Assembly: GCA_964016885.1 (NCBI GenBank)
Contig: OZ024744.1
Coordinates: forward strand, 83,204,001 to 83,268,000
Length of the DNA stretch: 64,000 nt
Direction of reading: 5' to 3'
DNA from: Eledone cirrhosa
Taxonomy: Eukaryota
A program made the translations under genes and the position numbers. Below, piece by piece: positions 851 through 30,797 of the stretch; within the stretch, counting starts at the first letter, position 1, and every line of letters starts with the position of its first letter. Under the pieces are notes generated by a model that was given only the letters and a program-made list of their open reading frames with translations, had not been told where the DNA came from and ran no database searches.

Positions 851-1029
851 ATATATATATAAATATATATATATTATCTGTGTGTGCGTGTTACCTCCTT
901 TTATTTCGCCCAACCGTGTCCCAATTGTTTGATCAACGGAGCAGCCTACTCAAAACATTAATGATTAAACATTCCAAAATCTCGCCTGCATTGAACGTGA
1001 GACACTGTGTGTCATGCATATTAAAGGAA

Positions 1030-1164
1030 CAGTCCAGCCGACGAGTTTTTACAAGACATGTGTCGACTCGAAACCATGGTAAACCACTTCCCCAAGTTGC
1101 CACGCAGTACAAGCGAACCCGGAATCTCATTGCGCCGGAAACTTCTTAACCATTTGACCACAGG
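1030..1164 (-). mobile_element. Degenerate tRNA-derived SINE
   Basis: Minus strand has A-box-like TGGTCAAATGGTTAAG and B-box-like GGGTTCGC, then TGCGTGGCAACTTGGGAAGTG; loosely similar to 44990-45175. Confidence 0.5.

Positions 1165-1196
<32 letters not shown>
1165..1196. repeat. (GATA)n tract at the 3' end of the LINE
   Basis: Direct reading. Confidence 0.95.
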
Positions 1197-1197
<1 letters not shown>

Positions 1198-1460
1198 GTT
1201 TCTTTTATTTGCCACTAGGGCATCAAAAGTGGGACAAGTACAAAGGGGGGAGTTTACACAAAAAGGCGTCCTCAATAAGGAGGAGGCAATAACAAAATAT
1301 AAAAATAAAATAAGATATAACAAAAAATAAAATTTTTAACAAAATCCTCAATAGAGAGGAGGCGCCTTGGGGGGTCGCACACACCCCCGAAAAAAGTGTG
1401 CAACCCTTTTCCTCAGGAGCACAGAGAGGGGGTGCTCCCTCGTTCCTTCCTCTTTTCCAC

Positions 1461-4400
1461 CTACAGGCTTATGTAAAGAGAAGGCCCATTCACACGGGCC
1501 ATTCTCGCCACTTTCACCCACCTTTCATAAAAACGACTGGGGTGCAGCACCTCTCTCTCCATCCTGATCCTTCTTCCGAAATGATATCGGAAGAAACGGA
1601 CCAGTTGTTGGCCAGAGAGAAAGGCGCCCGACCTCAGTCCTTTCAGACGCGTCCACCATACAACCTCTTTCGCCATGGCTATTACGCACAGAAACACCGC
1701 CTCTGCTTCATCTTTGAAGGGGGGAGGCGGCTTGATCATTACAATAGACTCGGTGGTCAACCGGATCGGTCCCACCCTTGACAGCAGTTGTTCGACATAG
1801 CCCCACAGATCGGCTACGCCCGAGCAGTGTACCAATGCGTGTGCAACGGTTTCCTCGTCGCACACGCATCTGGGACAGATCTTTTTGGCGGGGTCCCTAC
1901 CCGGGCGCCCGTGTCTGTAGAGCCTTTCTCGAACGGGTAAAGCCCCTCGGTAGCACTGCCAGGCCAGGGACTTCTGGAAGTTGTCCATAGGTCCCGGGCT
2001 GAATGTCCTACCGAACAGGCTGGCCAGTTCGTCCTCCTCCATGTCTAGGGCTTCTCCGAGGGCGTCGTCGCACCTGCTGCGTACCAGCCCTCTATAGAAT
2101 GTTGCGGTGGAGTCTCCACTGATAACCGGATCCGCCTGCCAGAGGGCGGTGAGCGCCTGGGCACACTCAGTGTGCCAGGCGCCCAGTTTTCTCGGTCTCT
2201 GCTTGACCCAGGATTGCAGTTCGGTGAGTGAGACGAGTCTGGGAAAGGTTCGTCTCACAAACGGGGCCCACACCGGTTGTCCGGTGAGGAATACGTAGAG
2301 GTGCCGTAGCCTTAATGCGTGTTTACGCATCATTAGCCACGGCATCCCCAGCCCTCCTTTCGAAGGGTGTTGACAGCAGATGGATCTCCTCACCATAGGA
2401 GCCCGCCCCTTCCAAAGGAATTGGAAGAGCGCGCGCTCCATCTTGGTGAGGGTTTCCCTTGGGCAGGGCACTACGGTCAGGCGGTAGTAGATGACGGACG
2501 CTATATAAGTGTTCGCCACCTCCGCCCGACCTTTCAGGGATAGTTTGCAACTGGCCCACTTCTGGGTCAGTGCAAACACCCTGTTCGTAACCTCCGCCCA
2601 GTTTTTCTCCACCTGGAGGTCCGGTCCGAACCAGACCCCGAGCAACTTCACCGGGCCCTCCGTCCAGCGTCCGACGACGCCATCGGAGGGCATCGGTCTG
2701 CCCCTCCACGTGCCGAGTTGCAAACCGATCGACTTGTCCCGGTTCAGCTTAGCCCCTGTGAACTTTTCGTACTCCTCCAGTAAGGTGCCGACCGCCTCGA
2801 TTTCGGAGGCCGTCGAGACCATTACTGTCACGTCATCGGCGTAGGCCGACACCGCTTTCCGCAATCCCGGTTCCAAAGGGATGCCCTGCAACAACTCCAA
2901 CTTCCGCAGTAGTGGCTCGAGAGTCAACACATACAGAAGGGAGGAGAGAGGGCACCCTTGTCGGATGGACCGCGCGATTTTGAACGGCTCCGAGAGGTAG
3001 CCGTTCACCTTGACCCTAGAGCAGATGCGGCTGCTGTGCATAGCAGTGATCCAGCCCCTGAAAACGGGTCCGAAGCCTGCCGCCGCTAGCACCGCATCCA
3101 GGTAACCATGGTCGACCCTATCGAACGCCTTAGATTGATCCAAGTTGATCAGAGCCCCACCAAAGCCGGGTTCGTTCCCAACCCTCTCTATGATGTATCG
3201 CATGAGGTGGAGGTTGTCATGGATGGACCTGGACGGGATAGCGCATGTCTGCGCATCTCCCACCAGGTTGCCCACGACAAGCGCCAACCTCTTTGCTAGC
3301 ACCTTGGCCAAAATCTGTAACTCTGTATTTAGCAGAGTTATGGGCCTGAAGTTACTTATTTCGTCCCCCTTGTTCTCGTCCTTCCTCACTAGCGTGACTA
3401 CGCCCTTGGTCACAGTACAGGGAATTCTCCCGTTCTGTTGCCAGTTGCAGTAGACCGCCTCGAGGAGATCGGGGAACAAGTCCGGCATAGCTAGATATAA
3501 TTCGTAAGGAAGACCATCGAGACCCGGGGATTTGCGTTTGCCGCATTGGCCCAGCACGTCCTCTATCTCAGCGGCCGAAATCGGCTCCTCGCAAGACTTC
3601 GCCTCCCTGTCCGAGAGGCGCGGCAGGCCGTCGAGGTATGGACCGAAGTCCACGTTTCCAACCGGCTCCCCGCCCCTCCCGAACAGTCGGGCAAAGTGCC
3701 TTTGAAAGGCCTCACACATCTGCTTAGGCTCAAGAATCGCCCGTCCATCCAGGTCTCGCAAAGACCGGATGGTGGATTTAGTTCCACTGTTGGCCTCTGT
3801 CACGCGGGCCCAGCTAACAGCTTTGGCCCCCTCGTTCCCTAGAGCACGTATTTTACTTCGGACAACGCAGCCTTCGTGCTTCGCGTCGAAAAACTGGCTC
3901 AAAGCCGTTCTCGACGCTAGCACTCTGGCCACGTCGCCGCTTCTAATTGCCTCTTCTACTCTATCTATTAGCTCCCTTTCCTTCCTATTCCTATCCGCAG
4001 CTAGAACCTTACTAAATTCAATCGAGACTACTCTAATCTCTCTCTTTAGAGATACCCACCACCTGCTGTTGACGATCGCTCCAGTCAACCGTTCCTTAAC
4101 TAACGTACTAATCCGATTCCTGTAGGCTCTACTTGCCGGCAAGGACAAGTTGAGCTTCCAGTAACCGGGGCCCTGTCTATGCGTTCTATCAAGGTTGACC
4201 ATGCAGGTCACCAACTTGTGGTCTGAATAGCCAACCATGAGCATTTCTGGACAACTTAAAAAGTCCCTGTCCTTATTTCTAACTAAAAATCTATCTAGGT
4301 ACGATCTAGATGATCCGCTGCGATTTGACCAAGACCAGGTTGGCACCGTCGGAAAATCTAGTCGAAATCTATCGGCCAGGTCAAATCGGCCGAGTAACCC

Positions 4401-4898
4401 CTTGAGGCTGTTGCACCCCTCTCTATCGGGACATGCCCCTGCATAGTCCCAACGTGCATCCAGGATACCATTCCAATCCCCCACTAAAAGCAGGGAACGG
4501 GACGTCCCTAGAAAAGACTCCAGACGCTGGAAAAAGTCGGGCCGCTCTGTCCCAAAAGGGGCATATGCGGCTATCAGCCTAAAGGCTCTACCTTCACCAC
4601 TGCCAAGGTCCAGCACCACCAGTCGACCCCCTGGGTCCACGTGAACTATCTGTGTTGCAAGGCCCATATGTTTTTGCAGCAGAACGACAACCCCACCCCC
4701 ACCTCCGGGCTGACAGAGAGATGCGTGCATCTCAAAGTCGTCAAAGGTGGGGGCTAGCTGTCGCATGCTGCTGATCCGGGCCTCGCAGATAACCATCACA
4801 TTTATAGATTGTGACCTGAGGTCATTTAGAAGCATTGCTTGCTTCCAAGACGAGCCCAGGCCACGCGCATTTAGACACCCTACTCTTAGCACAGCCAT
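1461..4898 (-). CDS. LINE ORF2: APE endonuclease + reverse transcriptase + C-terminal CCHC zinc finger (Tx1/L1 type)
   Basis: APE motifs CLNARG, AYAP, GDWN, YLDRF, SDH; RT motifs KSPGLDG, FRPITLLN, DQSKAFDRV, QGCPLS, YADD; CPRC...HALVHC. First ATG at 4898; frame open from 4922. Confidence 0.95.
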   Translation of the reverse strand: MAVLRVGCLNARGLGSSWKQAMLLNDLRSQSINVMVICEARISSMRQLAPTFDDFEMHASLCQPGGGGGVVVLLQKHMGLATQIVHVDPGGRLVVLDLGSGEGRAFRLIAAYAPFGTERPDFFQRLESFLGTSRSLLLVGDWNGILDARWDYAGACPDREGCNSLKGLLGRFDLADRFRLDFPTVPTWSWSNRSGSSRSYLDRFLVRNKDRDFLSCPEMLMVGYSDHKLVTCMVNLDRTHRQGPGYWKLNLSLPASRAYRNRISTLVKERLTGAIVNSRWWVSLKREIRVVSIEFSKVLAADRNRKERELIDRVEEAIRSGDVARVLASRTALSQFFDAKHEGCVVRSKIRALGNEGAKAVSWARVTEANSGTKSTIRSLRDLDGRAILEPKQMCEAFQRHFARLFGRGGEPVGNVDFGPYLDGLPRLSDREAKSCEEPISAAEIEDVLGQCGKRKSPGLDGLPYELYLAMPDLFPDLLEAVYCNWQQNGRIPCTVTKGVVTLVRKDENKGDEISNFRPITLLNTELQILAKVLAKRLALVVGNLVGDAQTCAIPSRSIHDNLHLMRYIIERVGNEPGFGGALINLDQSKAFDRVDHGYLDAVLAAAGFGPVFRGWITAMHSSRICSRVKVNGYLSEPFKIARSIRQGCPLSSLLYVLTLEPLLRKLELLQGIPLEPGLRKAVSAYADDVTVMVSTASEIEAVGTLLEEYEKFTGAKLNRDKSIGLQLGTWRGRPMPSDGVVGRWTEGPVKLLGVWFGPDLQVEKNWAEVTNRVFALTQKWASCKLSLKGRAEVANTYIASVIYYRLTVVPCPRETLTKMERALFQFLWKGRAPMVRRSICCQHPSKGGLGMPWLMMRKHALRLRHLYVFLTGQPVWAPFVRRTFPRLVSLTELQSWVKQRPRKLGAWHTECAQALTALWQADPVISGDSTATFYRGLVRSRCDDALGEALDMEEDELASLFGRTFSPGPMDNFQKSLAWQCYRGALPVRERLYRHGRPGRDPAKKICPRCVCDEETVAHALVHCSGVADLWGYVEQLLSRVGPIRLTTESIVMIKPPPPFKDEAEAVFLCVIAMAKEVVWWTRLKGLRSGAFLSGQQLVRFFRYHFGRRIRMEREVLHPSRFYERWVKVARMARVNGPSLYISL

Positions 4899-4922
4899 GT
4901 TGGTGGTAAAGAGAAAAGGCAC

Positions 4923-6565
4923 TTACCTCTCTGCGTCCCGGGAAACGGGCCGCTCAATTTCCATGCTGGTTGGGGATGGGTTGTTGGGTGGGGTTGTGGT
5001 TTGTGGAAGTGAAGGGGCATCGGTGTGTTGTGGGGTTGGGGTGTTTGTCGTTGAGTGGGTGTCTGGGTGAGGTGGGGGGGTGAAATTTTTTAGGAGGACG
5101 CGGTTGATTGGTTTGGCGCAGGGGGGGCCCACGTCCTCCGTGAAATTTATTTTCAGTGTTTTGTACAAGTGCATTGGGACTTTTATCATTTTCAAATGAG
5201 GTAGTCCCACAGCAGTTATAAAGTTTGGCCCTTCGGTTTGGACCGAAGGGTTTGCTGAAATTGTTTTCCGTAATTCTTTGTTGTCTGTGTTCATGTATGT
5301 GTATTGTAATGTCTTTTTTTGTGTAGCAGTTAGTGTTGTGTGACAGGGAGGGGTGGTTTGTGTGTAGTTTGTGTTCTCTTGGGGGGGATTAAAGTTAACA
5401 TGTGTGTCTGTGGTGCGTCTCCTCTTCTTTCTTTTTACTTGTTGGAAGGGATCTTTTTCGTCTTGCGACGAAAGAGGTTCGTCTTCCTTGTTGGGTGGGA
5501 GGGGTATGTTTTCTGGTAGTGTTTGCGGTGTGCGTGTTTTTGTATTTGTTTTGGGTGGGGAGGGATTGGGTGGGACAGTATTCTGTGTTATTTTTTCACG
5601 TGTTTGTTGTTGTTGTTGTTGTGGTGGTGGTGGTGGGGTTGTTGGTTTTTGTTGTTGTTGTGGTTGTTTTTGTTGTTGTAGTTGGGGTGGTGTTGGTGTT
5701 GGTAGCAGTGTTTTTTTCTGTGTGAGCTGGGGACAGGCAGCCCTCAGGTGACCTCTATTGCCACAGAGGTAACAGGAGGGACGCCTACCCTCCACAATAA
5801 TGTTGAGGTGGGTACGGTCATCCAGCATGACGCGCTCAGGGATTTGGGCGATGCGTTCTGGCCTTATTTGGGTCAGAACTTCGATGCTCGTTCCACTGAA
5901 CGCGTCGCCGGATGCCTTCCCTATTGAGATGAGGTTGTCCTCGTCTAAATTGAGGAAACCGGTTAGTAACCACCAGTAGTTTATGTTTGGGGTGATGGTG
6001 GTTATCCATATCCTCTGGGTTTTTTTACCCATGTAGGTAGGGAAGAAGGTGTAGTGTGTGGACCGAATTGGCGACACAGAGTATTTTTTTGCCGCCAATT
6101 CGTCTTTCATCAATATGGATAAACTCCCATAGAGTTTATCCTTTTGTATGAAAGTGATGTCTCTCATCGCGTCTTTCAAGACTAACTGAGTTTCCGCTTG
6201 AGATGGTTGCGCTGGTTTCTTTGTTTTATTTAAAATTGTTCGGAATACGACAGTTCGTAATTCCGTCTGTCTTTTTAGCTCCGGAGGTGAATGTATAGAA
6301 AACGATCCGTTTTCACCAAAAGACACATATTTCTTGGCTTTTTCCAGCATTTCTTTTGCTTTTGAAATATCTTCCAGCACATAAGCGACTGATAATTTAG
6401 CCGTTTGTGCAAAAGATATTTTGTTTTCGTTTTGGATATTAGTATTGTTTTGTTTCTCGTCGTTTGAGTTGTTTTCATCTTTGTTGTTGTTGTTGTCTTT
6501 CTCGTTTCGTGTGTGGATACTTGTGACGTTTGTGTTGTTGTTGTTTTTGTTGTCTTTATTGTTGC

Positions 6566-6596
<31 letters not shown>

Positions 6597-6773
6597 GTTT
6601 TCAAATTCTTGTGTAGTTGTGGCTACATCTAGTGGTCGGTCAACAGGTGAAGACAATTCTTCCTCTCTCTGACCTCTGCCTTTGGCATCTGCTGCTGTGA
6701 CAATGGCAGGGGGAAGCTGTGAGTATAACTTCCCCTTTCCTTCTTTGATTGATGGTGAAGATGATTCAGCCAT
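4923..6773 (-). CDS. LINE ORF1, gag-like nucleic-acid-binding protein with a CCHC zinc knuckle
   Basis: CYLCGNRGHLRAAC knuckle, poly-Asn and Gln/Pro tracts, basic KRKKRRR; lies directly upstream of ORF2; first ATG (MAESS) at 6773. Confidence 0.88.
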
Positions 6774-6996
6774 TTTTCTCAAAATAGGGTTTTTCGAAGT
6801 TTTTCGAAAGATAAAATGTTCACAATACTATTTCGCCCAAAGGCGCAGAATATTTTGAGAGACCGACCAGATCAAAATTTGACCTGGCAGTCCCTCTACA
6901 AAATGATACAAAAATGAAAGTTTACAGTTTACAATTTCCGTATGAATTTAAACAAAAACTTACCGAGCGAGCTCAGCACATGTGTCCATCGTAGAT

Positions 6997-7034
<38 letters not shown>

Positions 7035-7035
7035 T

Positions 7036-7684
7036 GTTTCTTTTATTTGCCACTAGGGCATCAAAAGTGGGACAAGTACAAAGGGGGTAGTTTACACAAA
7101 AAGGCGTCCTCAATAAGGAGGAGGCAATAACAATATATAAAAATAAAATAAGATATAACAAAAAATAAAATTTATAACAAAATCCTCAATAGAGAGGAGG
7201 CGCCTTGGGGGGTCGCACACACCCCCGAAAAAAGTGTGCAACCCTTCTCCTCAGGAGCACAGAGAAGGGGTGCTCCCTTGGTCTTTCATCTTCCTCACCT
7301 ATAGTCTGATGTAGAGTGAAGGCCCATTCACACGGGCCATTCTCGCCACTTTCACCCATCTTTCATAGAAACGGCTGGGGTGCAGCACCTCTCTCTCCAT
7401 CCTGATCCTTCTTCCGAAATGATAACGGAAGAAACGGACCAGTTGTTGGCCAGAGAGAAAAGTGCCTGACCTCAGTCCTTTCAGACGCGTCCACCATACA
7501 ACCTCTTTCGCCATGGCTATTACGCACAGAAACACCACCTCTGCTTCATCTTTGAAGGGGGGAGGCGGCTTGATCATTACAATAGACTCGGTGGTCAACC
7601 GGATCGGTCCCACCCTTGACAGCAGTTGTTCGACATAGCCCCACAGATCGGCTACGCCCGAGCAGTGTACCAATGCGTGTGCAA
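7036..7684 (-). mobile_element. 5'-truncated copy of the same Tx1-like LINE
   Basis: Near-identical to 1198-1846, encodes the ORF2 C-terminus AHALVHC...ARVNGPSLYIRL; (GATA)n on both sides. Confidence 0.93.
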
Positions 7685-7741
7685 GATAGATAGATAGATA
7701 GATAGATAGAGAGATAGATAGATAGATAGATAGATAGATAT

Positions 7742-8317
7742 ATTTCTTTATTAGCCACAGAGGCACAAAAGAAGGGGACAAGTACAAAGGGGGAAGTTTA
7801 CATACAATAAAAACGTGTAAAATGTTATCACAAATGGAATTTAAAAAGTTAGTCGATTTTCCCCAATAGAGGGAGACAGTTTATATGGATAACACATACC
7901 CCCGAAAAAAAATATGCAACCCTCATCTCCAGGAGTACGAAGAGTTTGTACTCCTTTCCTCTCCTCCTCCTTTTCCTCAACCTACAGGCTGATATAGAGA
8001 GAAGGCCCATTCACTCGGGCCATTCTCGCCACTTTCACCCACCTTTCATAAAACTTGCTGGGGTACAGCACCTCTCTCTCCATCCTGATTCTTCTTCCAA
8101 AGTGGTATTTGAAAAAAAGAATCAGTTGTTGGCCGGAGAGAAAGGTGTCTGACCTCAGCCCTTTCAACCTTGTCCACCATACAACCTCTTTCGCCACAGC
8201 TATCACACAAAGGAAAACCGCCTCTCCTTCGTTTTTGAAGGAGGGTGGCGGTTTGATCATGACAATGGACTCGGTGGTCAACTGGATTGGTCCCACCCGC
8301 GACAATAGTCGTTCTAC

Positions 8318-8321
<4 letters not shown>
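7742..8321 (-). mobile_element. 5'-truncated copy of a related Tx1-like subfamily
   Basis: Encodes SRVGPIQLTTESIV...ARVNGPSLYISL; diverged 3' UTR ending AATAAAGAAATATATC; (GATA)n on both sides. Confidence 0.9.
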
Positions 8322-8394
<73 letters not shown>

Positions 8395-8446
8395 CAGACA
8401 GAGAGGGCGAGAGAGAGAGATAGAGAGATAGAGAGAGAGAGAGAGG

Positions 8447-8526
<80 letters not shown>

Positions 8527-8612
8527 CAGCGAGCGAGAGCGAGAGAGTGAGAGAGTGAGCAAGAGAAAGTCACGAACTTACGAACAAACATACCCAGCCA
8601 CACACACACACC

Positions 8613-8649
<37 letters not shown>

Positions 8650-10214
8650 ACTCGCACACTCTCTCACACACACACACACACATATATGCATATGTGTCTG
8701 TATGGTGTATGTGTGTATGAATGCAAACGTTACCATTATGTCAATGTCTATAAATGTGTCACTTCAGAATCCCAATATATTTCTGTATTCTTACTAAAAA
8801 AACAAGCTTGCGAAATTTTGCTTAGATATTAGTTTTACATTTGTACTAATTTTTATTTGCATAGCGAATATTGAAATACGATATTTAATCAAAATCTATT
8901 GCCAAAAACACTATGTTGAAATATATACATTGTTTCATTCACTACGCTATATATCACTATTTTGACTAGGCAGTACACCATATCCTGTTTCTATGGGAAT
9001 GTAAATAGGAATATGTGAGTTTCATTTATTTCCCATGTGTATTGAAATGAAATGGCTTATAGTCCACAATCGAAACTATATCAGCACCAGTGAGTTATAT
9101 CTTACTTTACAGCGCTCCCATATGCATTGTTGCAAGTATTGATTTATTTTGACTAGGCACAGTGCCAAGATATTTTGTAAATGTAGAAGATATATATGAC
9201 TTTATATTATTATTATTGCTTTCAATATCATTGGCATTTTCTATCGGACGAATGGAATATAAAGACGATCCTTCGTTATAAATGAACTCAGATCCGTGAG
9301 GAATGAAACTGAATACTAAAAAATTACTTAGCATCGACTGTCTACTGACTTACATTCAATATCTGAACACTAACGGAACGAGCAATCGTAAAATATCAGC
9401 TGCAACCAACTGAATTTCTTTCATCTCCTCAGTGACCACCAATATGACAACAGAAACCTTTTAATCTAAATCTCATATCAGCAGTATCGTGACCTTGAGA
9501 AGTTTTTAATGGATCAAAGCGTCCTACTGTGATTTGCATGTATAGATTCTGGCAAAGTAGTATGTCTATACAGCTCCATTCTTTACTATTAATGAACTAA
9601 TTCTAAAAAGATTTATTTTTGCTGTTCTCTTTCTTCCGTCCGCACTCCATCATATGAGGTGTAACCCGTGGCTCAGCTTTCACATTGCAACATATCTATC
9701 GATGTCTAACAAATATTGCAGAGAAGACATATCTCAAGACAGTTTTCTGAAAACGGTTTATGCGAATTGTAAAACCAAACCAGGCCAGACCAGGCAATTA
9801 ACCTAACTATTGTACATATGCTTGGCTTAACAATTACAACTCTTTACTCGAGGACTATATATATATTTATATATATTCTCCAGGCTATTTTTTCCAAAAT
9901 CCTTTTTTCAAAATCTGAAAAGTTGTCTTTAAATAATGAACAAAACGGTATCTTGTAGTAAAACACTCAGACACACATTTTCGTGTGTATCAATTTCGTC
10001 TTAATAATAGTAAAAAACAAAAAGACAAAAAAGTACCCTATTTCAGGTTGTGGTAATGTGTCCTTTATGTATCGTTTAAGGAATTCTCATTACATCCCTG
10101 AAAAATTGTTTCATTCTACAGTCAGCTAAATCAATCGAAGCAAACATCAACATTCTGCTCTGTTATTTATTCTACCGTTTTATTTCAGGCCATGTACAAA
10201 ATACTTAGTCGCAT

Positions 10215-11889: not shown

Positions 11890-12305
11890 TTTATATTACT
11901 TTATAAACTATTTATAACAACCGACTATACTTACGAATATTTTCTGCACCCGATCATACAATATTTTCTATAAATTTTATATATTCTTGGCGCTTATATG
12001 TTCAATGTTTCGAGCTTCAGATACGATTATTTAGACGATAAGATGTTATCATGGGTCCTTTCGCTCAATGGCTAGAGTACTCAGCCGGTATCTGAGAGAT
12101 GTGAGTTTTGACCCCTTGTGGCGGCCACTACCAGATGTTTTCTCCGTCTCTAAGGGTATTTGTCCTATTTTACTAGCTATGTTTAGCAAACGACTGTTTT
12201 ACAGTTATTTTCTGCGCCCGAAAATATTATATTTTCTATAAAATTTATATCCTCTCAGCACTTCGTAATGCCAAGTTCGAGTTTTGCACACGGTATATAT
12301 AAACA
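11890..12305 (+). mobile_element. tRNA-headed repeat, about 1.5 tandem units
   Basis: tRNA-like head at 12053-12133 (TCGCTCAATGGCTAGAG...GAGTTTTGACCC); 11915-12030 resembles 12185-12300. Confidence 0.55.
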
Positions 12306-25089: not shown

Positions 25090-26130
25090 AGTACCGGGCG
25101 GCAGGTGATATTAACGATACTATTTACAGTCAATTTGCCCAGGTTCATCGGAGTTGCACAAGCGATGTCAGTTACCCAAGAATCTGAAGGAAATACCGTA
25201 AAGTGACGGAAGAACCAAATCGTATAACAAGAAGTCTAAACACACATTGTCATACTATTGATTACTACGTATTAATGATACACACAACATACTTAGCCAT
25301 GTAAATTAACTCCATTAAGATATTTTGATCTTCGTGGTTGATGGAGGTTATGTTGGTAAAATTCTTGCCATCAGAAACCTGCAATACAAGAGAGACATCA
25401 GTGAAGGCGCAGTAGTCAGTAAAATGCAAATAAAATAAAACAAATCATAACTCAATAGTCCAATATAACAAAGTTCCTCTTGAGTAAGGCAGATTGAAAT
25501 TTTTGTATCCAAATCAGTAGCGGATCCTGAAATTGATATGGACAAGGATGCGTAGTTCCGTGCGCATATCACCAAGATAGACATAATGTGTAGATCGGAT
25601 GGATCATTTAGATAACTTAGAACCAGGGAAGAGGTTTCATATTGGTCCTCTGAAGGACAATTTATGTCAGTCACCAGAACGATAGCTCTCAGCTATAACC
25701 ACCCACAATGAGGAACTAGAGAGGTTGGATGAATTAAAATTCAATTCCCTGTAGCAAAGAGAAGAGAGATTTGCAGTTATATAGATATGGAAAGATTGTG
25801 AAAGAGCTAGTACCAAGTTTGCCATTGAAAGCTGGACCAACACCCGAACCAAATATCCCGGTGTAATGCCAACTTTCCCATATTCTACTTCCAGATTAAG
25901 GACAAGATATTGCAATAACTTGGAGTCCACGGGCCCTAAATTATTTATGTATTTTGTAAAATCCTGGGAGATCTACATGTTTTCATGAAGCATCTCGAAA
26001 ATCTGCTATGAACTAGGCAAGAAACAGAAATAAGTGCAGTGAGGTCACCAATGATCAACCAAGGAAGGGTAGATATAGAAAGTGTTGCAACAATGGTGAT
26101 GCCCAGCAAGACCTTAGCTCGTTTATAGTA
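25090..26130 (+). mobile_element. Old degenerate LINE-like sequence
   Basis: Part is homologous to 18175-18462; no open frame; extent uncertain. Confidence 0.3.
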
Positions 26131-26179
26131 ACACTGAAAAGAATAAAAGCGTAAAGGAGTATGTGAGAATATATATATC

Positions 26180-27420
26180 ATTTGCCGAGGAGTTACACAG
26201 CTGGCAAAATTTCGTCCTATTGACGTAGGGGTGGATCTTTCTAGTATCCTCCATTTAATTGGGAGCGCTGTGCCGTTATCTTTGAGTTTCCACACATGGT
26301 TCGCGGGCACAGTGGTATCTTTATTTTTGTTAGTACGTCTAAAGGTTGTTTCGTGGTTCAAGAAACCACTTTTGAACCGGCTCTCAGACATTCCTACATA
26401 AGTACAAGTTTCAATATGGTGGACGTCATTTCTGCTTCATATATCATCGCGTGAGTGTTGCACTAATGGTCCTGGGGGTATGTCACTTGCCCTCTGCCTG
26501 AGCATCGGTAAGGTGGAAGGCTTTTGTTGGTGACGTGGGATTTTGTTCTTGGTACATGAATGACCAATTTTCACTGTGTGGTGGTTGAATATTTGCTGGT
26601 ATTTATGGGCTACAGGATGAATGCTAGAAATGTTTACCTACATTTGTCCTCATGTTGAGTGGGAATGTTAGCGCGAATCACACGACAGCTTTATATCTAG
26701 ATTTCTTTTCTTGTTTATATAGGGTGGTGATCGGAGAAGCCGCTGTTGCTTAGGGCTGAGTTTTAGTAGGAGGCTGACCTGTCAAAATTGGCTCTGCTAG
26801 AAGAGAGCCTCTTGTGGATATTATTAAAATTTAAAAAAAACTATTGCAGGGCGGTGACTAGAGTCCTTACGAATATACCCAAGGTTTTCACTGGGTTTGT
26901 GGAATGGTTTGTATGTTCGTGTAAGTAGGTCTAAGTTAACTTCTAGAAGGTTAACACCGCTGAGGTTGTTAGAGACGGTAATTTTTTTTTATTAGTGAAG
27001 TCATCCTTATGATCTTTAAGTGTAATATAATCCTTTCTATTAGACAAACGTTCTAACGTGTAGTCTATTTTGCGGTTGGTAGCTATATCCTTCGCCTCAT
27101 CGCTGGTGGCATATTAAGTGGCAGGGTCAGTTTTTCGTTTGTATTTAGACTGTATGAGCTTGTTTAGAAATTGGATATAGATGGAGTGATCAAGCTCATA
27201 AAGATTGTTAGTTGTATCTGATAGGACGAAGATTTTGTCAGAGGATCTGAAGATTTTACGTCTCTAAGTGTTTACTGAAAGGAGTTGGAGTATTTGCGAA
27301 AAGATATGTTAGCAACTGGATTAAGGAGATGCGCTTCAAAAGGAGCAAGGTCATTTACATTAGGTGGGTAATTTCTAGATTTCAAGTTGAAAATATTGGC
27401 TGAACTTGATAATTTCCTGT
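26180..27420 (-). pseudogene. Degenerate Penelope-like element (RT pieces + GIY-YIG), apparently internally deleted
   Basis: RFKSGFLNHETTF...NHVWKLKD...IKWRILE (endonuclease); VNLLEVNLDL..RTYKPFHKP...DSSH (RT C-terminus); YITLKDHKDDF (RT N-terminus); many stops. Confidence 0.75.
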
Positions 27421-29120: not shown

Positions 29121-30797
29121 TCAGGTTATAAATTGGGTGTTGAGTTCTAGTCTATTATTGATTGGTGTTTGTGTTTTATCTATAATTAGTGCTTCCTTAA
29201 TTCTAAGATTGCCGAGGTTTCTTTCCTTAGTTTCTATCCTAACTGTTATGGTTTTGTCGATGTTTTTGCATTTAACTAGGTGTTTCTTAAATGAGGAAGC
29301 GTTAGTATTGAGGTGTTCTTTTATTCTTATGTGGAGTAGTCTGGTGGTGCTACCTACGTAGAAGTTGTTGCATTTGTCACACTCTAGACTGTATACGACG
29401 TAAGCCTGGTGGCATAGGTCTGTGTCGTTGATGGGGCAGTTGGCTAGTCTGCAACAGTTGTCATATCTGGTGGAGTGTCTTTTGGTTAGCTGTCCGCGCA
29501 GAGAAGGACCTGAGTGGGCCAGTTGGATATCTAGGCCCTCTCGTCTGATAGCTCTGCGGATGGCTGTTGTTGTTTCTTCACTGAAGTGTGGGAGCTTCAG
29601 GAGGCAAGTGTTAGTGCCTCGGGTGTGGTGTCCTCTGTTCTTTCTGGCACGGTTTGTGGTGGATGTTGTGTATCCGTTCAGTTTGAGTACTTCCAGGAAA
29701 TGTGTGGTGTGTGTGTCTCGGTATCTAGCGTCGGTGCATTTGTTCCGGATACGTGCCAATTCGTTCCTTATGTATCCGAACTTGGCACCGAGTGGGAGGG
29801 CCGATCTGAAATGTACGAACAGGTCCCTGCTGGCGGCTTTTTTATAGAAGCAGGTGTGGATGTTGCCTTCCTCTGTTACCCTGAGTTGGAAGTCCAGTAG
29901 GGATAGGGATCCGCCATCATCGGGGTGTTCCATGCTGAACTTTATACTGGCGTCCATGCTGGAGAATGTTGTGTATATTTTATCTGCCTCCTCACGGGAT
30001 CATGTAAGGATGAGTATGTCATCTACATATCGGGTGAAGAAGGTATGGGAATGGCAGGTGTTGAGGGCTCGACATTCTAGCTGGTTCATGTAGGTGATGG
30101 CCAGCAGGCCCGATAGGCTTGATCCCATGGGTAATCCTGTTGTCTGCCTGTATGTGTGGTGGTCGAAGGTGAAGTACGTGCTGTCTACTGTGAAGGACAA
30201 AAGCTGGTGTATGTCCGTCGGGTGGAGGCCGTAGCAGTGGATGTCCTCTGCGACCACGCAGTCAGTCAATAAATCGACAGCTGGGTGAGCTGGGACTGTA
30301 GTGTAGAGGGAGACAACGTCGAGGCTAAAGGTGTATTTATTTAGTTTAAGTTGTTCTGGCTGGAGTTGGTGTAGTCTACGTATAACTTTGTCGGAGCTAC
30401 TGACATGCACGGGAAAGGTGGAGAGTAGAGGCTTAAGGACCTGGGAGAGGAGCCAGGAAATTTTGTATAGGGGTCCTTCTATGCTAGAGACGATGGGTCT
30501 TATTTGCGTCTTAGTACTATTCTTGTGGGTCTTGGTGAGGTGGTAGAAAGTGGGCAGTCTGCTATTTCTAGTGGTGTAGTTGAGCTTAACTTTATTTGGG
30601 AGTTGTCTTCTCCTACAGATATCGAACCAGATGGAGTTGGTCTGTTTTTCGATCTGGGCTGCAGTCATGTTCGGGATCTCTGTGTATAATTATTCATTGT
30701 CACTTAGGTGTTCAAAGGCTAGGTTGTTGTATGTGGCTTGAGAGATGACGCAAAACTCTTTACCTTTGTCGGATGGTAAGTATATAAGTTCCCTATT
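29121..30797 (-). pseudogene. PLE reverse transcriptase + GIY-YIG endonuclease, one frame with two premature stops
   Basis: LPSDKG, IRPIVS, SLDVVSLYT, GLPMGSSLS, RYVDD, Cys-rich linker CCRLANCP...LC, VVYSLECDKC..YVGST..RIKEH; TAA at 30690-30692 and TGA at 30000-30002. Confidence 0.92.

What the first reader, a model, noticed from the sequence alone, without database searches (positions are those of the whole stretch)
1165..8395. Intact Tx1-like LINE plus two independent insertions stacked in one (GATA)n microsatellite
Seen: one full-length element with both ORFs open and two 5'-truncated copies. They have different truncation points, one belongs to another subfamily, all share one orientation, and every junction lies in (GATA)n. 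All 3' ends read AATAAA(A)GAAAY then (TATC)n, with no poly(A). Known: several Tx1-clade families are sequence-specific, including for microsatellites. Inference: this is a (GATA)n/(TATC)n-specific, strand-specific and possibly still active retrotransposon whose APE domain could be a new site-specific nuclease.
Basis: partly seen in the sequence, partly recalled or inferred. Interest (0 to 1): 0.75.

Follow-up and report, generated by a model that had tools for sequence, protein, structure and literature searches.

The report
Jumping gene that targets GATA repeats
This is one intact and two truncated copies of a young, very abundant jumping-gene family, in what is likely an octopus-type genome, that sits almost always in one orientation inside GATA/TATC short repeats, likely because its DNA-cutting enzyme and its RNA end pick that repeat; a close sister family sits in ATT repeats instead, which would allow a direct test of how such elements change target.

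Summary
Observation confirmed. Window 1197-6991 (minus) is a full-length L1/Tx1-group LINE with both ORFs open; two truncated copies of other subfamilies follow, all four junctions in (GATA)n. Genome-wide, 1,652 of 1,946 exact 3' ends are followed by NN-TATCT. In 100 copies picked by position, 62 have TATC at the 5' side too (background 0.12%), none has the repeat reversed, and readable sites show 9-23 bp target duplications, so the repeat is target, not tail. Specificity is strong, not absolute: (TA)n and lone TATCT are also used. At least 20% of perfect (TATC)4+ run starts are such ends. Copies differ by 3-61 bases in 5.8 kb; current activity and nicking were not shown. The reverse transcriptase forms its own lineage beside, not within, vertebrate Tx1. 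A sister family with a 57-68% identical ORF2 sits in (ATT)n. It works like Kibi/Koshi with a target I did not find in nine paper searches; Repbase/Dfam could not be checked. The scan has already reported this family on other DNA.

The parts
1165..1196 (-). (TATC)8 target tract at the 3' junction of copy 1
1197..6991 (-). Copy 1: full-length LINE, subfamily A, 5795 bp, both ORFs open
   Evidence: 8-61 mismatches to ten other full-length A copies
1197..1460 (-). 3' UTR, 264 nt, ending AATAAAAGAAA-CT with no poly(A)
   Evidence: same end in 1,946 places
1461..4898 (-). ORF2, 1145 aa: APE endonuclease (about residues 1-240), reverse transcriptase, C-terminal zinc-binding motif
   Evidence: Pfam Exo_endo_phos, RVT_1, zf-RVT below cut-off; catalytic residues align with Tx1L; model matches L1 endonuclease, TM 0.81-0.82
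4305..4331 (-). Predicted bB6-bB5 hairpin loop of the endonuclease (about residues 190-198), nine residues as in L1, two shorter than Tx1L; differs at two positions in the (ATT)n sister family
   Evidence: alignments; role of this loop from PMC1950540 passages
4923..6773 (-). ORF1, 616 aa: Asn-rich and Pro/Gln/Thr-rich low-complexity parts around a core predicted as two RRM-like domains plus one CCHC knuckle
   Evidence: zf-CCHC weak; model pLDDT 87 with tandem-RRM matches at E about 1e-4, low TM
6774..6991 (-). 5' UTR, 218 nt
6992..7034 (-). TATC tract between copy 2 (3' end) and copy 1 (5' end); its last bases carry a variant shared with three full-length copies at other loci
7035..7684 (-). 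Copy 2: 5'-truncated, 650 bp, closest to subfamily B (98.8%)
7685..7740 (-). TATC tract between copy 3 and copy 2
7741..8320 (-). Copy 3: 5'-truncated, 580 bp, older sister lineage (about 83% to copy 1)
8321..8395 (-). (TATC)18 tract at the outermost 5' junction, not explained by any element's tail

Best explanation
This is a young L1/Tx1-group LINE family whose copies sit in one fixed orientation and phase in TATC/GATA repeats and duplicate about 9-23 bases of the site, likely because its endonuclease nicks the GATA strand just after A(G/T)ATA and the nicked end likely primes reverse transcription at the element's 3' end. Shown: anatomy, copy number, flank composition on both sides, target duplications, orientation, stacking, youth. 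Inferred: (1) the nick position, from the geometry of target-primed reverse transcription; (2) that specificity comes mainly from the endonuclease, helped by pairing of the nicked strand with TATC read through at the RNA's 3' end (polyadenylation signal sits 7-8 nt before the junction); (3) that transcripts start in the donor's upstream repeat, since full-length copies at different loci share repeat-like 5' leaders; (4) that each insertion leaves target on both sides, so later copies stack head to tail as in this window; (5) that the family is still mobile.
For: 1,652 of 1,946 exact 3' ends are followed by NN-TATCT; 9,669 of 11,901 ends of the type seen in copy 3 likewise, control 0. First 100 copies on contig C1, chosen by position only: TAT(C/A)T at the junction in 96, two or more TATC units in 69, reversed GATA in 0; 5' side TATC 62, TA 9, other 29 of which 10 are still element; background for the 5' class 0.12%. 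Among 72 truncated copies with a clean 5' junction, TATC is on both sides in 40, on neither in 24, 3' only in 5, 5' only in 3 (odds ratio 64, p 3e-11); the same holds in 51 not stacked on another copy (22/23/4/2). Duplications of 13 bases or more in 19 of 43 readable sites against 3.3 on average and at most 8 in 1,000 shuffles; a 17-base duplication in unique DNA at L024 with no added repeat. Catalytic residues intact; ORF2 open in 13 and both ORFs in 6 of 18 full-length copies; closest pairs differ by 3-4 bases in 5.8 kb. 19 of 30 full-length 5' ends share a leader ending CTCTAC and 4 share another variant.
Against: Specificity is leaky: 9 of 100 in (TA)n, 18 at short TAT(C/A)T only, 4 other; 12 of 43 readable sites show no duplication and 7 more show under 10 bases. 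A few copies have TATC only at the 3' side (L081, L134, L142), which a tail could explain. The conserved bases lie on the primer side of the inferred nick, so flank data cannot separate enzyme recognition from RNA-primer pairing. Some of the 100 are not independent (L110-L112 in one tandem array, three copies in L082). The sample is from one contig; background rests on 200 kb. No nicking, transcript or polymorphism data were obtained.
Confidence: 0.8

Rival explanations
1. Targeting is real but set mainly by RNA-primer pairing: a loosely specific endonuclease nicks AT-rich DNA and only nicks whose 3' end pairs with TATC read through at the RNA end get extended (as in the snap-velcro model for L1).
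For: All conserved target bases are on the primer side; the polyadenylation signal is so close to the end that the transcript would run into the flanking repeat; at two off-repeat sites (L073, L102) the target also matches the element's last two bases; PMC4014453 abstract.
Against: Insertions into pure (TA)n carry no copied TATC at the 3' side (L068, L069, L106, L155); the (ATT)n sister family has nearly the same 3' terminus but a diverged endonuclease; Tx1L endonuclease is sequence-specific in vitro (PMC1950540 passages).
Confidence: 0.3
2. The repeat is made by the element: a TATC tail added at insertion seeds microsatellites (as described for CR1-L3 in snakes), and 5' tracts come from stacking on earlier tails.
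For: At least 5,677 of 27,717 perfect (TATC)4+ run starts are element-type ends and 22 of the first 30 such runs on C1 abut the family (several in the same locus); full-length copies appear to carry a few repeat units at the 5' end; 5 of 72 truncated copies have TATC at the 3' side only; PMC8303610 passages.
Against: 38 of 62 TATC 5' junctions are not next to another element end within 200 bases; 3' and 5' repeat content are tightly coupled; unique and (TA)n sites have no tail. The element may still enlarge the TATC pool by duplication and leaders.
Confidence: 0.07
3. Insertion is random and copies survive selectively in or near TATC arrays, or the stack arose by local duplication or assembly error.
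For: Repeat-rich DNA is likely neutral; tandem duplications of copies exist (L082, L110-L111).
Against: Base-precise phase (98-99 of 100 at the first three junction bases) and one orientation in copies under 1% diverged; the three window copies are different subfamilies with different truncation points; (TA)n sites are hundreds of times more common but take only 9 of 100.
Confidence: 0.02

Closest known systems
Kibi (TC)n and Koshi (TTC)n, teleost Tx1 clade; crocodilian Tx1 families on (TTCC)n/(TTTC)n (PMC4494074 passages and section 15; PMC3812793 passages)
   Same: APE-type two-ORF LINE inserted preferentially into a microsatellite; passes that paper's criterion of more than 20% of flanks by a wide margin.
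   Different: Target is (TATC)n/(GATA)n, not among the targets in the passages I read; reverse transcriptase forms a separate lineage, so targeting may have arisen independently; invertebrate host.
Tx1L of Xenopus laevis (YTX2_XENLA, P0317)
   Same: Same ORF2 layout and catalytic residues; 29% identity over 915 residues, 318 bits against 166 for human L1 ORF2.
   Different: Tx1L targets a DNA transposon (PMC4494074 passage); its endonuclease hairpin loop is two residues longer; not in the same supported subclade.
Waldo (ACAY)n, Mino (AC)n, Dong (TAA)n, Togen (TG)n (PMC3812793 and PMC4640811 passages)
   Same: Microsatellite-targeting non-LTR elements; Waldo also takes a four-base repeat.
   Different: Other clades and other repeats.
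L1-Tx1 families listed as recently active in Octopus vulgaris (PMC13282606 passages: 13 families, 421 insertions)
   Same: Young L1-Tx1 LINEs in an octopod; may include orthologous families.
   Different: The word 'target' does not occur in that paper's main text; sequences were not compared.
CR1-L3 microsatellite seeding in snakes (PMC8303610 passages)
   Same: A LINE family adjacent to a large share of one microsatellite motif, including ATAG.
   Different: There the repeat is attributed to seeding by the element; here it lies on both sides with target duplications.

Membership tests
L1 group / Tx1-like non-LTR retrotransposon | N-terminal APE endonuclease in ORF2 with catalytic residues | tested here: met
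   Pfam PF03372 above cut-off; N10, E39, D141, N143, D202, D226, H227 invariant in 18 rows; model pLDDT 93 matches L1 endonuclease first
L1 group / Tx1-like non-LTR retrotransposon | Non-LTR reverse transcriptase closer to L1/Tx1 than to R2 | tested here: met
   phmmer bits: Tx1L 318, Tetraodon Q76IM5 343, human L1 166, R2 55-70
L1 group / Tx1-like non-LTR retrotransposon | ORF1 with RRM-type RNA-binding domain and CCHC knuckle; CCHC motif at ORF2 end (features recalled) | tested here: met
   zf-CCHC and zf-RVT just under Pfam cut-off, zf-RVT above cut-off in the sister copy L276; tandem RRM-like fold predicted
L1 group / Tx1-like non-LTR retrotransposon | 5' truncation and target-site duplication | tested here: met
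   82 of 100 truncated; duplications
Tx1 clade in the strict sense | Reverse transcriptase nests with Tx1L/Keno/Kibi/Koshi to the exclusion of L1 | tested here: inconclusive
   Quick tree of 84 rows: own 16-row lineage (SH-aLRT 100) in an open fork (90) with the vertebrate Tx1 group; plant L1-like and ascidian rows lie outside; no vertebrate L1 row and no bootstrap
Target-specific Tx1 by the criterion of PMC4494074 | One sequence type in more than 20% of flanks | tested here: met
   62 of 100 5' flanks and 69 of 100 3' flanks
Kibi/Koshi families | Target (TC)n or (TTC)n | tested here: not met
   Junction motif is TAT(C/A)T in 96 of 100
Kibi/Koshi families | Reverse transcriptase clusters with the teleost microsatellite-specific group | tested here: not met
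   Separate from all fish rows including Q76IM5; that Q76IM5 is a Kibi or Koshi protein is recalled, not shown by a call
Sequence-specific APE retrotransposon (Tx1L, R1, TRAS type) | Purified endonuclease nicks the target sequence specifically | not testable with these tools
   needs a nicking assay
Microsatellite-seeding LINE (tail-maker) | Repeat at the 3' end only, present whatever the target | tested here: not met
   both sides 40, neither 24, 3' only 5, 5' only 3 of 72
Catalogued Repbase/Dfam family with this target | Entry with matching sequence and target note | not testable with these tools
   no such library on hand

The most novel reading that the evidence does not exclude
An octopod radiation of Tx1-like LINEs evolved microsatellite targeting independently of Kibi/Koshi, is still mobile, occupies and renews a large share of the genome's GATA arrays by duplicating its target and carrying repeat leaders in its RNA, and has switched between (TATC)n and (ATT)n through a few endonuclease surface changes, giving a natural pair that maps the specificity code of APE endonucleases.
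Probability: 0.35. Interest if true: 0.7.

Novelty: new variant of a known kind. Interest (0 to 1): 0.5.

Why it matters
How APE-type retrotransposons recognise microsatellites is described as not well understood (PMC3812793 passage), and retargeting APE endonucleases is a stated engineering aim (PMC1950540 passages). Here are young intact copies, thousands of natural junctions that give a near-experimental target profile, and a close sister with another target, so the share of enzyme versus RNA pairing in target choice becomes directly testable. For the host genome, at least a fifth of perfect GATA runs begin at such an element end, which matters for microsatellite birth and interruption and for GATA marker design (shared, multi-copy flanks).

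Tried and rejected
Expression: no RNA holder listed; no evidence either way. Polymorphism: three RAD-seq runs and one contig set laid on window 900-8700 gave no cover of the unique flanks and skipped the repeats; untested. Targets in other organisms: contigs of four other organisms cover ORF2 parts, but repeats were skipped, so no flank could be read. Metagenome contigs: no locus for homologue P0006. Protein atlas: no result available. Supplement of PMC4494074 (with the Tx1 target figures) not held; it and figure 3 may list further targets. Sequence look-up in earlier findings returned nothing. The careful tree did not finish; the quick tree is reported, with 29 of 113 rows dropped for time. 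Rejected: pure tail origin, passive accumulation, local duplication of one copy, and 'new kind of nuclease'.
Full report
Observation. The window holds, on the minus strand, a 5,795-base element (1197-6991) with a 218-nt 5' UTR, ORF1 (616 aa), a 24-nt in-frame spacer, ORF2 (1145 aa) and a 264-nt 3' UTR ending AATAAAAGAAA-CT. Two 5'-truncated copies follow at 7035-7684 and 7741-8320, and GATA tracts lie at 1165-1196, 6992-7034, 7685-7740 and 8321-8392. Copy 2 is 96% identical to copy 1 and 98.8% to a second subfamily (B); copy 3 is about 83% identical. They are three independent insertions. The outermost 5' tract (8321-8392) cannot be any element's tail.

What it encodes. ORF2 has an APE endonuclease, a reverse transcriptase and a C-terminal zinc motif. 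The catalytic residues are invariant across 18 aligned rows; the predicted domain (pLDDT 93) matches human L1 endonuclease best (TM 0.81-0.82). The ORF1 core is predicted as two RRM-like domains with one CCHC knuckle (pLDDT 87; matches at E about 1e-4 with low TM). ORF2 scores 318 bits against Xenopus Tx1L and 343 against a Tetraodon pol protein, 166 against human L1. In a quick tree of 84 RT rows (29 of 113 dropped for time, SH-aLRT only, no vertebrate L1), the element and its genomic sisters group with an Argonauta hians protein (67% identity) inside a 16-row lineage at support 100, which joins vertebrate Tx1 only in an open fork at 90. So it is Tx1-like; strict membership is inconclusive. 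The host is inferred to be an octopod-type cephalopod from that homologue alone.

Copy number and age. The last 28 bases match exactly at 1,946 places in the 3.0-Gb genome; a 17-base end of the copy-3 type matches at 11,901 places, control 0 (this count includes sister families and possibly non-autonomous partners). All 40 scored matches to the 3' 224 bases were 100% identical. Of the first 100 copies on contig C1, 18 are full length; ORF2 is open in 13 and both ORFs in 6; ten A copies differ from the window copy by 8-61 bases and the closest pairs at different loci by 3-4 bases (five of the ten were fetched for being identical at the 5' end). Subfamilies A and B are 94-100% identical from the RT region to the 3' end but 62-91% in 5' UTR, ORF1 and endonuclease, which points to a swap of the 5' half (inference); both use TATC.

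Target or tail. Genome-wide, 1,652 of 1,946 and 9,669 of 11,901 ends are followed by NN-TATCT. In the 100 position-picked copies the junction reads TAT(C/A)T in 96; 54 have three or more TATC units, 15 two, 9 (TA)4+, 18 only the short motif, 4 other; none has the repeat reversed. Background from 20 stretches of 10 kb: (TATC)3 starts at 4.75e-5 per position, (TA)4 at 2.3e-2. By my arithmetic this is about 11,000-fold enrichment for TATC arrays, 45-fold for lone TATCT and 4-fold for (TA)n; the first figure rests on 19 background counts. On the 5' side 62 of 100 are TATC-rich (background 0.12%), 9 TA, 29 other, 10 of those still element sequence; 38 of the 62 are not next to another element end. 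Among 72 truncated copies with clean junctions, TATC is on both sides in 40, neither in 24, 3' only in 5, 5' only in 3 (p 3e-11). Duplications of 13 or more bases appear in 19 of 43 readable sites (shuffled mean 3.3, maximum 8); 12 show none. L024 is a 285-base copy in unique DNA with a 17-base duplication that begins TATCT and no added repeat; 29 of those 30 loci begin TAT(C/A). The repeat is therefore mainly target. Against a clean picture: leaky use of (TA)n and unique sites, a few 3'-only cases (L081, L134, L142), and non-independent copies in tandem arrays (L082, L110-L112).

Share of the repeat. There are 27,717 starts of perfect (TATC)4+ runs, and 5,677 (20.5%) are directly preceded by the element-type end, control 9. 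Of the first 30 such runs on C1, 22 abut the family on one or both sides, several within one locus. All 30 full-length 5' ends examined lie in TATC-like sequence; 19 share a leader ending CTCTAC and 4, the window copy among them, share another variant, also where the site itself has little TATC (L036, L037/L160, L087). I infer that transcripts begin in the donor's upstream repeat and carry it along.

Mechanism. Shown: phase, strand, duplication, stacking. Inferred from target-primed reverse transcription (established knowledge): the GATA strand is nicked just 3' of A(G/T)ATA, that end primes synthesis at the element's last base, and the second cut falls about 9-23 bases downstream. Since each event leaves target on both sides, later copies can land beside earlier ones, giving head-to-tail stacks. 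All conserved bases lie on the primer side, as in L1, so enzyme recognition and RNA-primer pairing (PMC4014453, abstract only) cannot be separated from flanks. I favour the enzyme as the main determinant because Tx1L endonuclease is specific in vitro and the bB6-bB5 loop alters nicking (PMC1950540 passages), because pure (TA)n sites carry no copied TATC, and because of the sister family below.

Sister family. Following a lead from earlier scan notes, I found 245 ends of nearly the same terminus followed by (ATT)4, control 0 (the pattern demands the 3' repeat, so it gives no rate). 21 of the first 30 carry ORF2-like sequence upstream. Of 20 longer stretches fetched, 19 were read; nine reach the start of ORF2, L276 has an open ORF2 68% identical to the window's, and five long copies (L271, L272, L273, L275, L284) begin in (ATT)n at the point where sharing with another copy starts. 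Their endonucleases differ from the TATC families at two positions of the hairpin loop and in other surface segments. Which changes matter is untested.

Comparison with what is known. Microsatellite targeting is known for Kibi (TC)n, Koshi (TTC)n and crocodilian Tx1 (TTCC/TTTC)n (PMC4494074, passages and section 15; supplement not held), and for Waldo, Mino, Dong (PMC3812793 passages) and Togen (PMC4640811 passages). None of those passages names GATA/TATC. PMC13282606 lists 13 recently active L1-Tx1 families in Octopus vulgaris without the word target (passages). Passages of PMC5786205, PMC8869645 and PMC11203168 added nothing on this target. Nine searches showed no report of a GATA-targeting LINE; most subscription papers, Kojima and Fujiwara 2004 (seen only as a reference), Repbase and Dfam were out of reach, so absence from print is not established.

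Verdict. A real, well-supported microsatellite-targeting LINE family: it works like Kibi/Koshi but is not one of them. New variant of a known kind; interest 0.5. Activity today, enzyme specificity and catalogue status remain open. The scan has reported the same family on several other pieces of this genome and in another genome; those notes are not independent evidence.

Noticed in passing
window 29121-30689 (minus): Degenerate Penelope-like element: RVT_1 fragment followed by a GIY-YIG fragment; a similar-looking fragment at 25945-26436 had no Pfam match.
   Followed up: partly
L133 (G000:C1:138799700-138806600): The only one of 100 copies with a poly(A)-like tail, sitting in a (TAA)n tract; may have been moved by another LINE's machinery or from a polyadenylated RNA.
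   Followed up: no
full-length copies L067-L153 versus window 1197-6991: Subfamilies A and B share the 3' half almost exactly but differ in 5' UTR, ORF1 and endonuclease, suggesting a recombinational swap of the 5' half; B is 13 and A 5 of 18 full-length copies.
   Followed up: partly
L110-L112 (G000:C1:108.72-108.83 Mb), L073, L079: Insertions into satellite or minisatellite units at TATAT motifs; two copies in one array look duplicated with the array.
   Followed up: no
L076, L090, L118, L123, L125, L145: Copies with internal deletions or joins between distant element parts (upstream of the apparent 5' end is more element sequence).
   Followed up: no
L271-L290: (ATT)n-associated sister family with one open ORF2 (L276); most copies are more decayed than the TATC family.
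   Followed up: partly
window 4923-4898: ORF1 and ORF2 are in the same frame, separated by one stop codon and 24 bases; the same layout holds in subfamily B.
   Followed up: no
runs X4, X6, X7, X8 laid on window 1100-2600: Contigs of four other organisms hold relatives of the ORF2 3' part, some pieces over 99% identical.
   Followed up: partly
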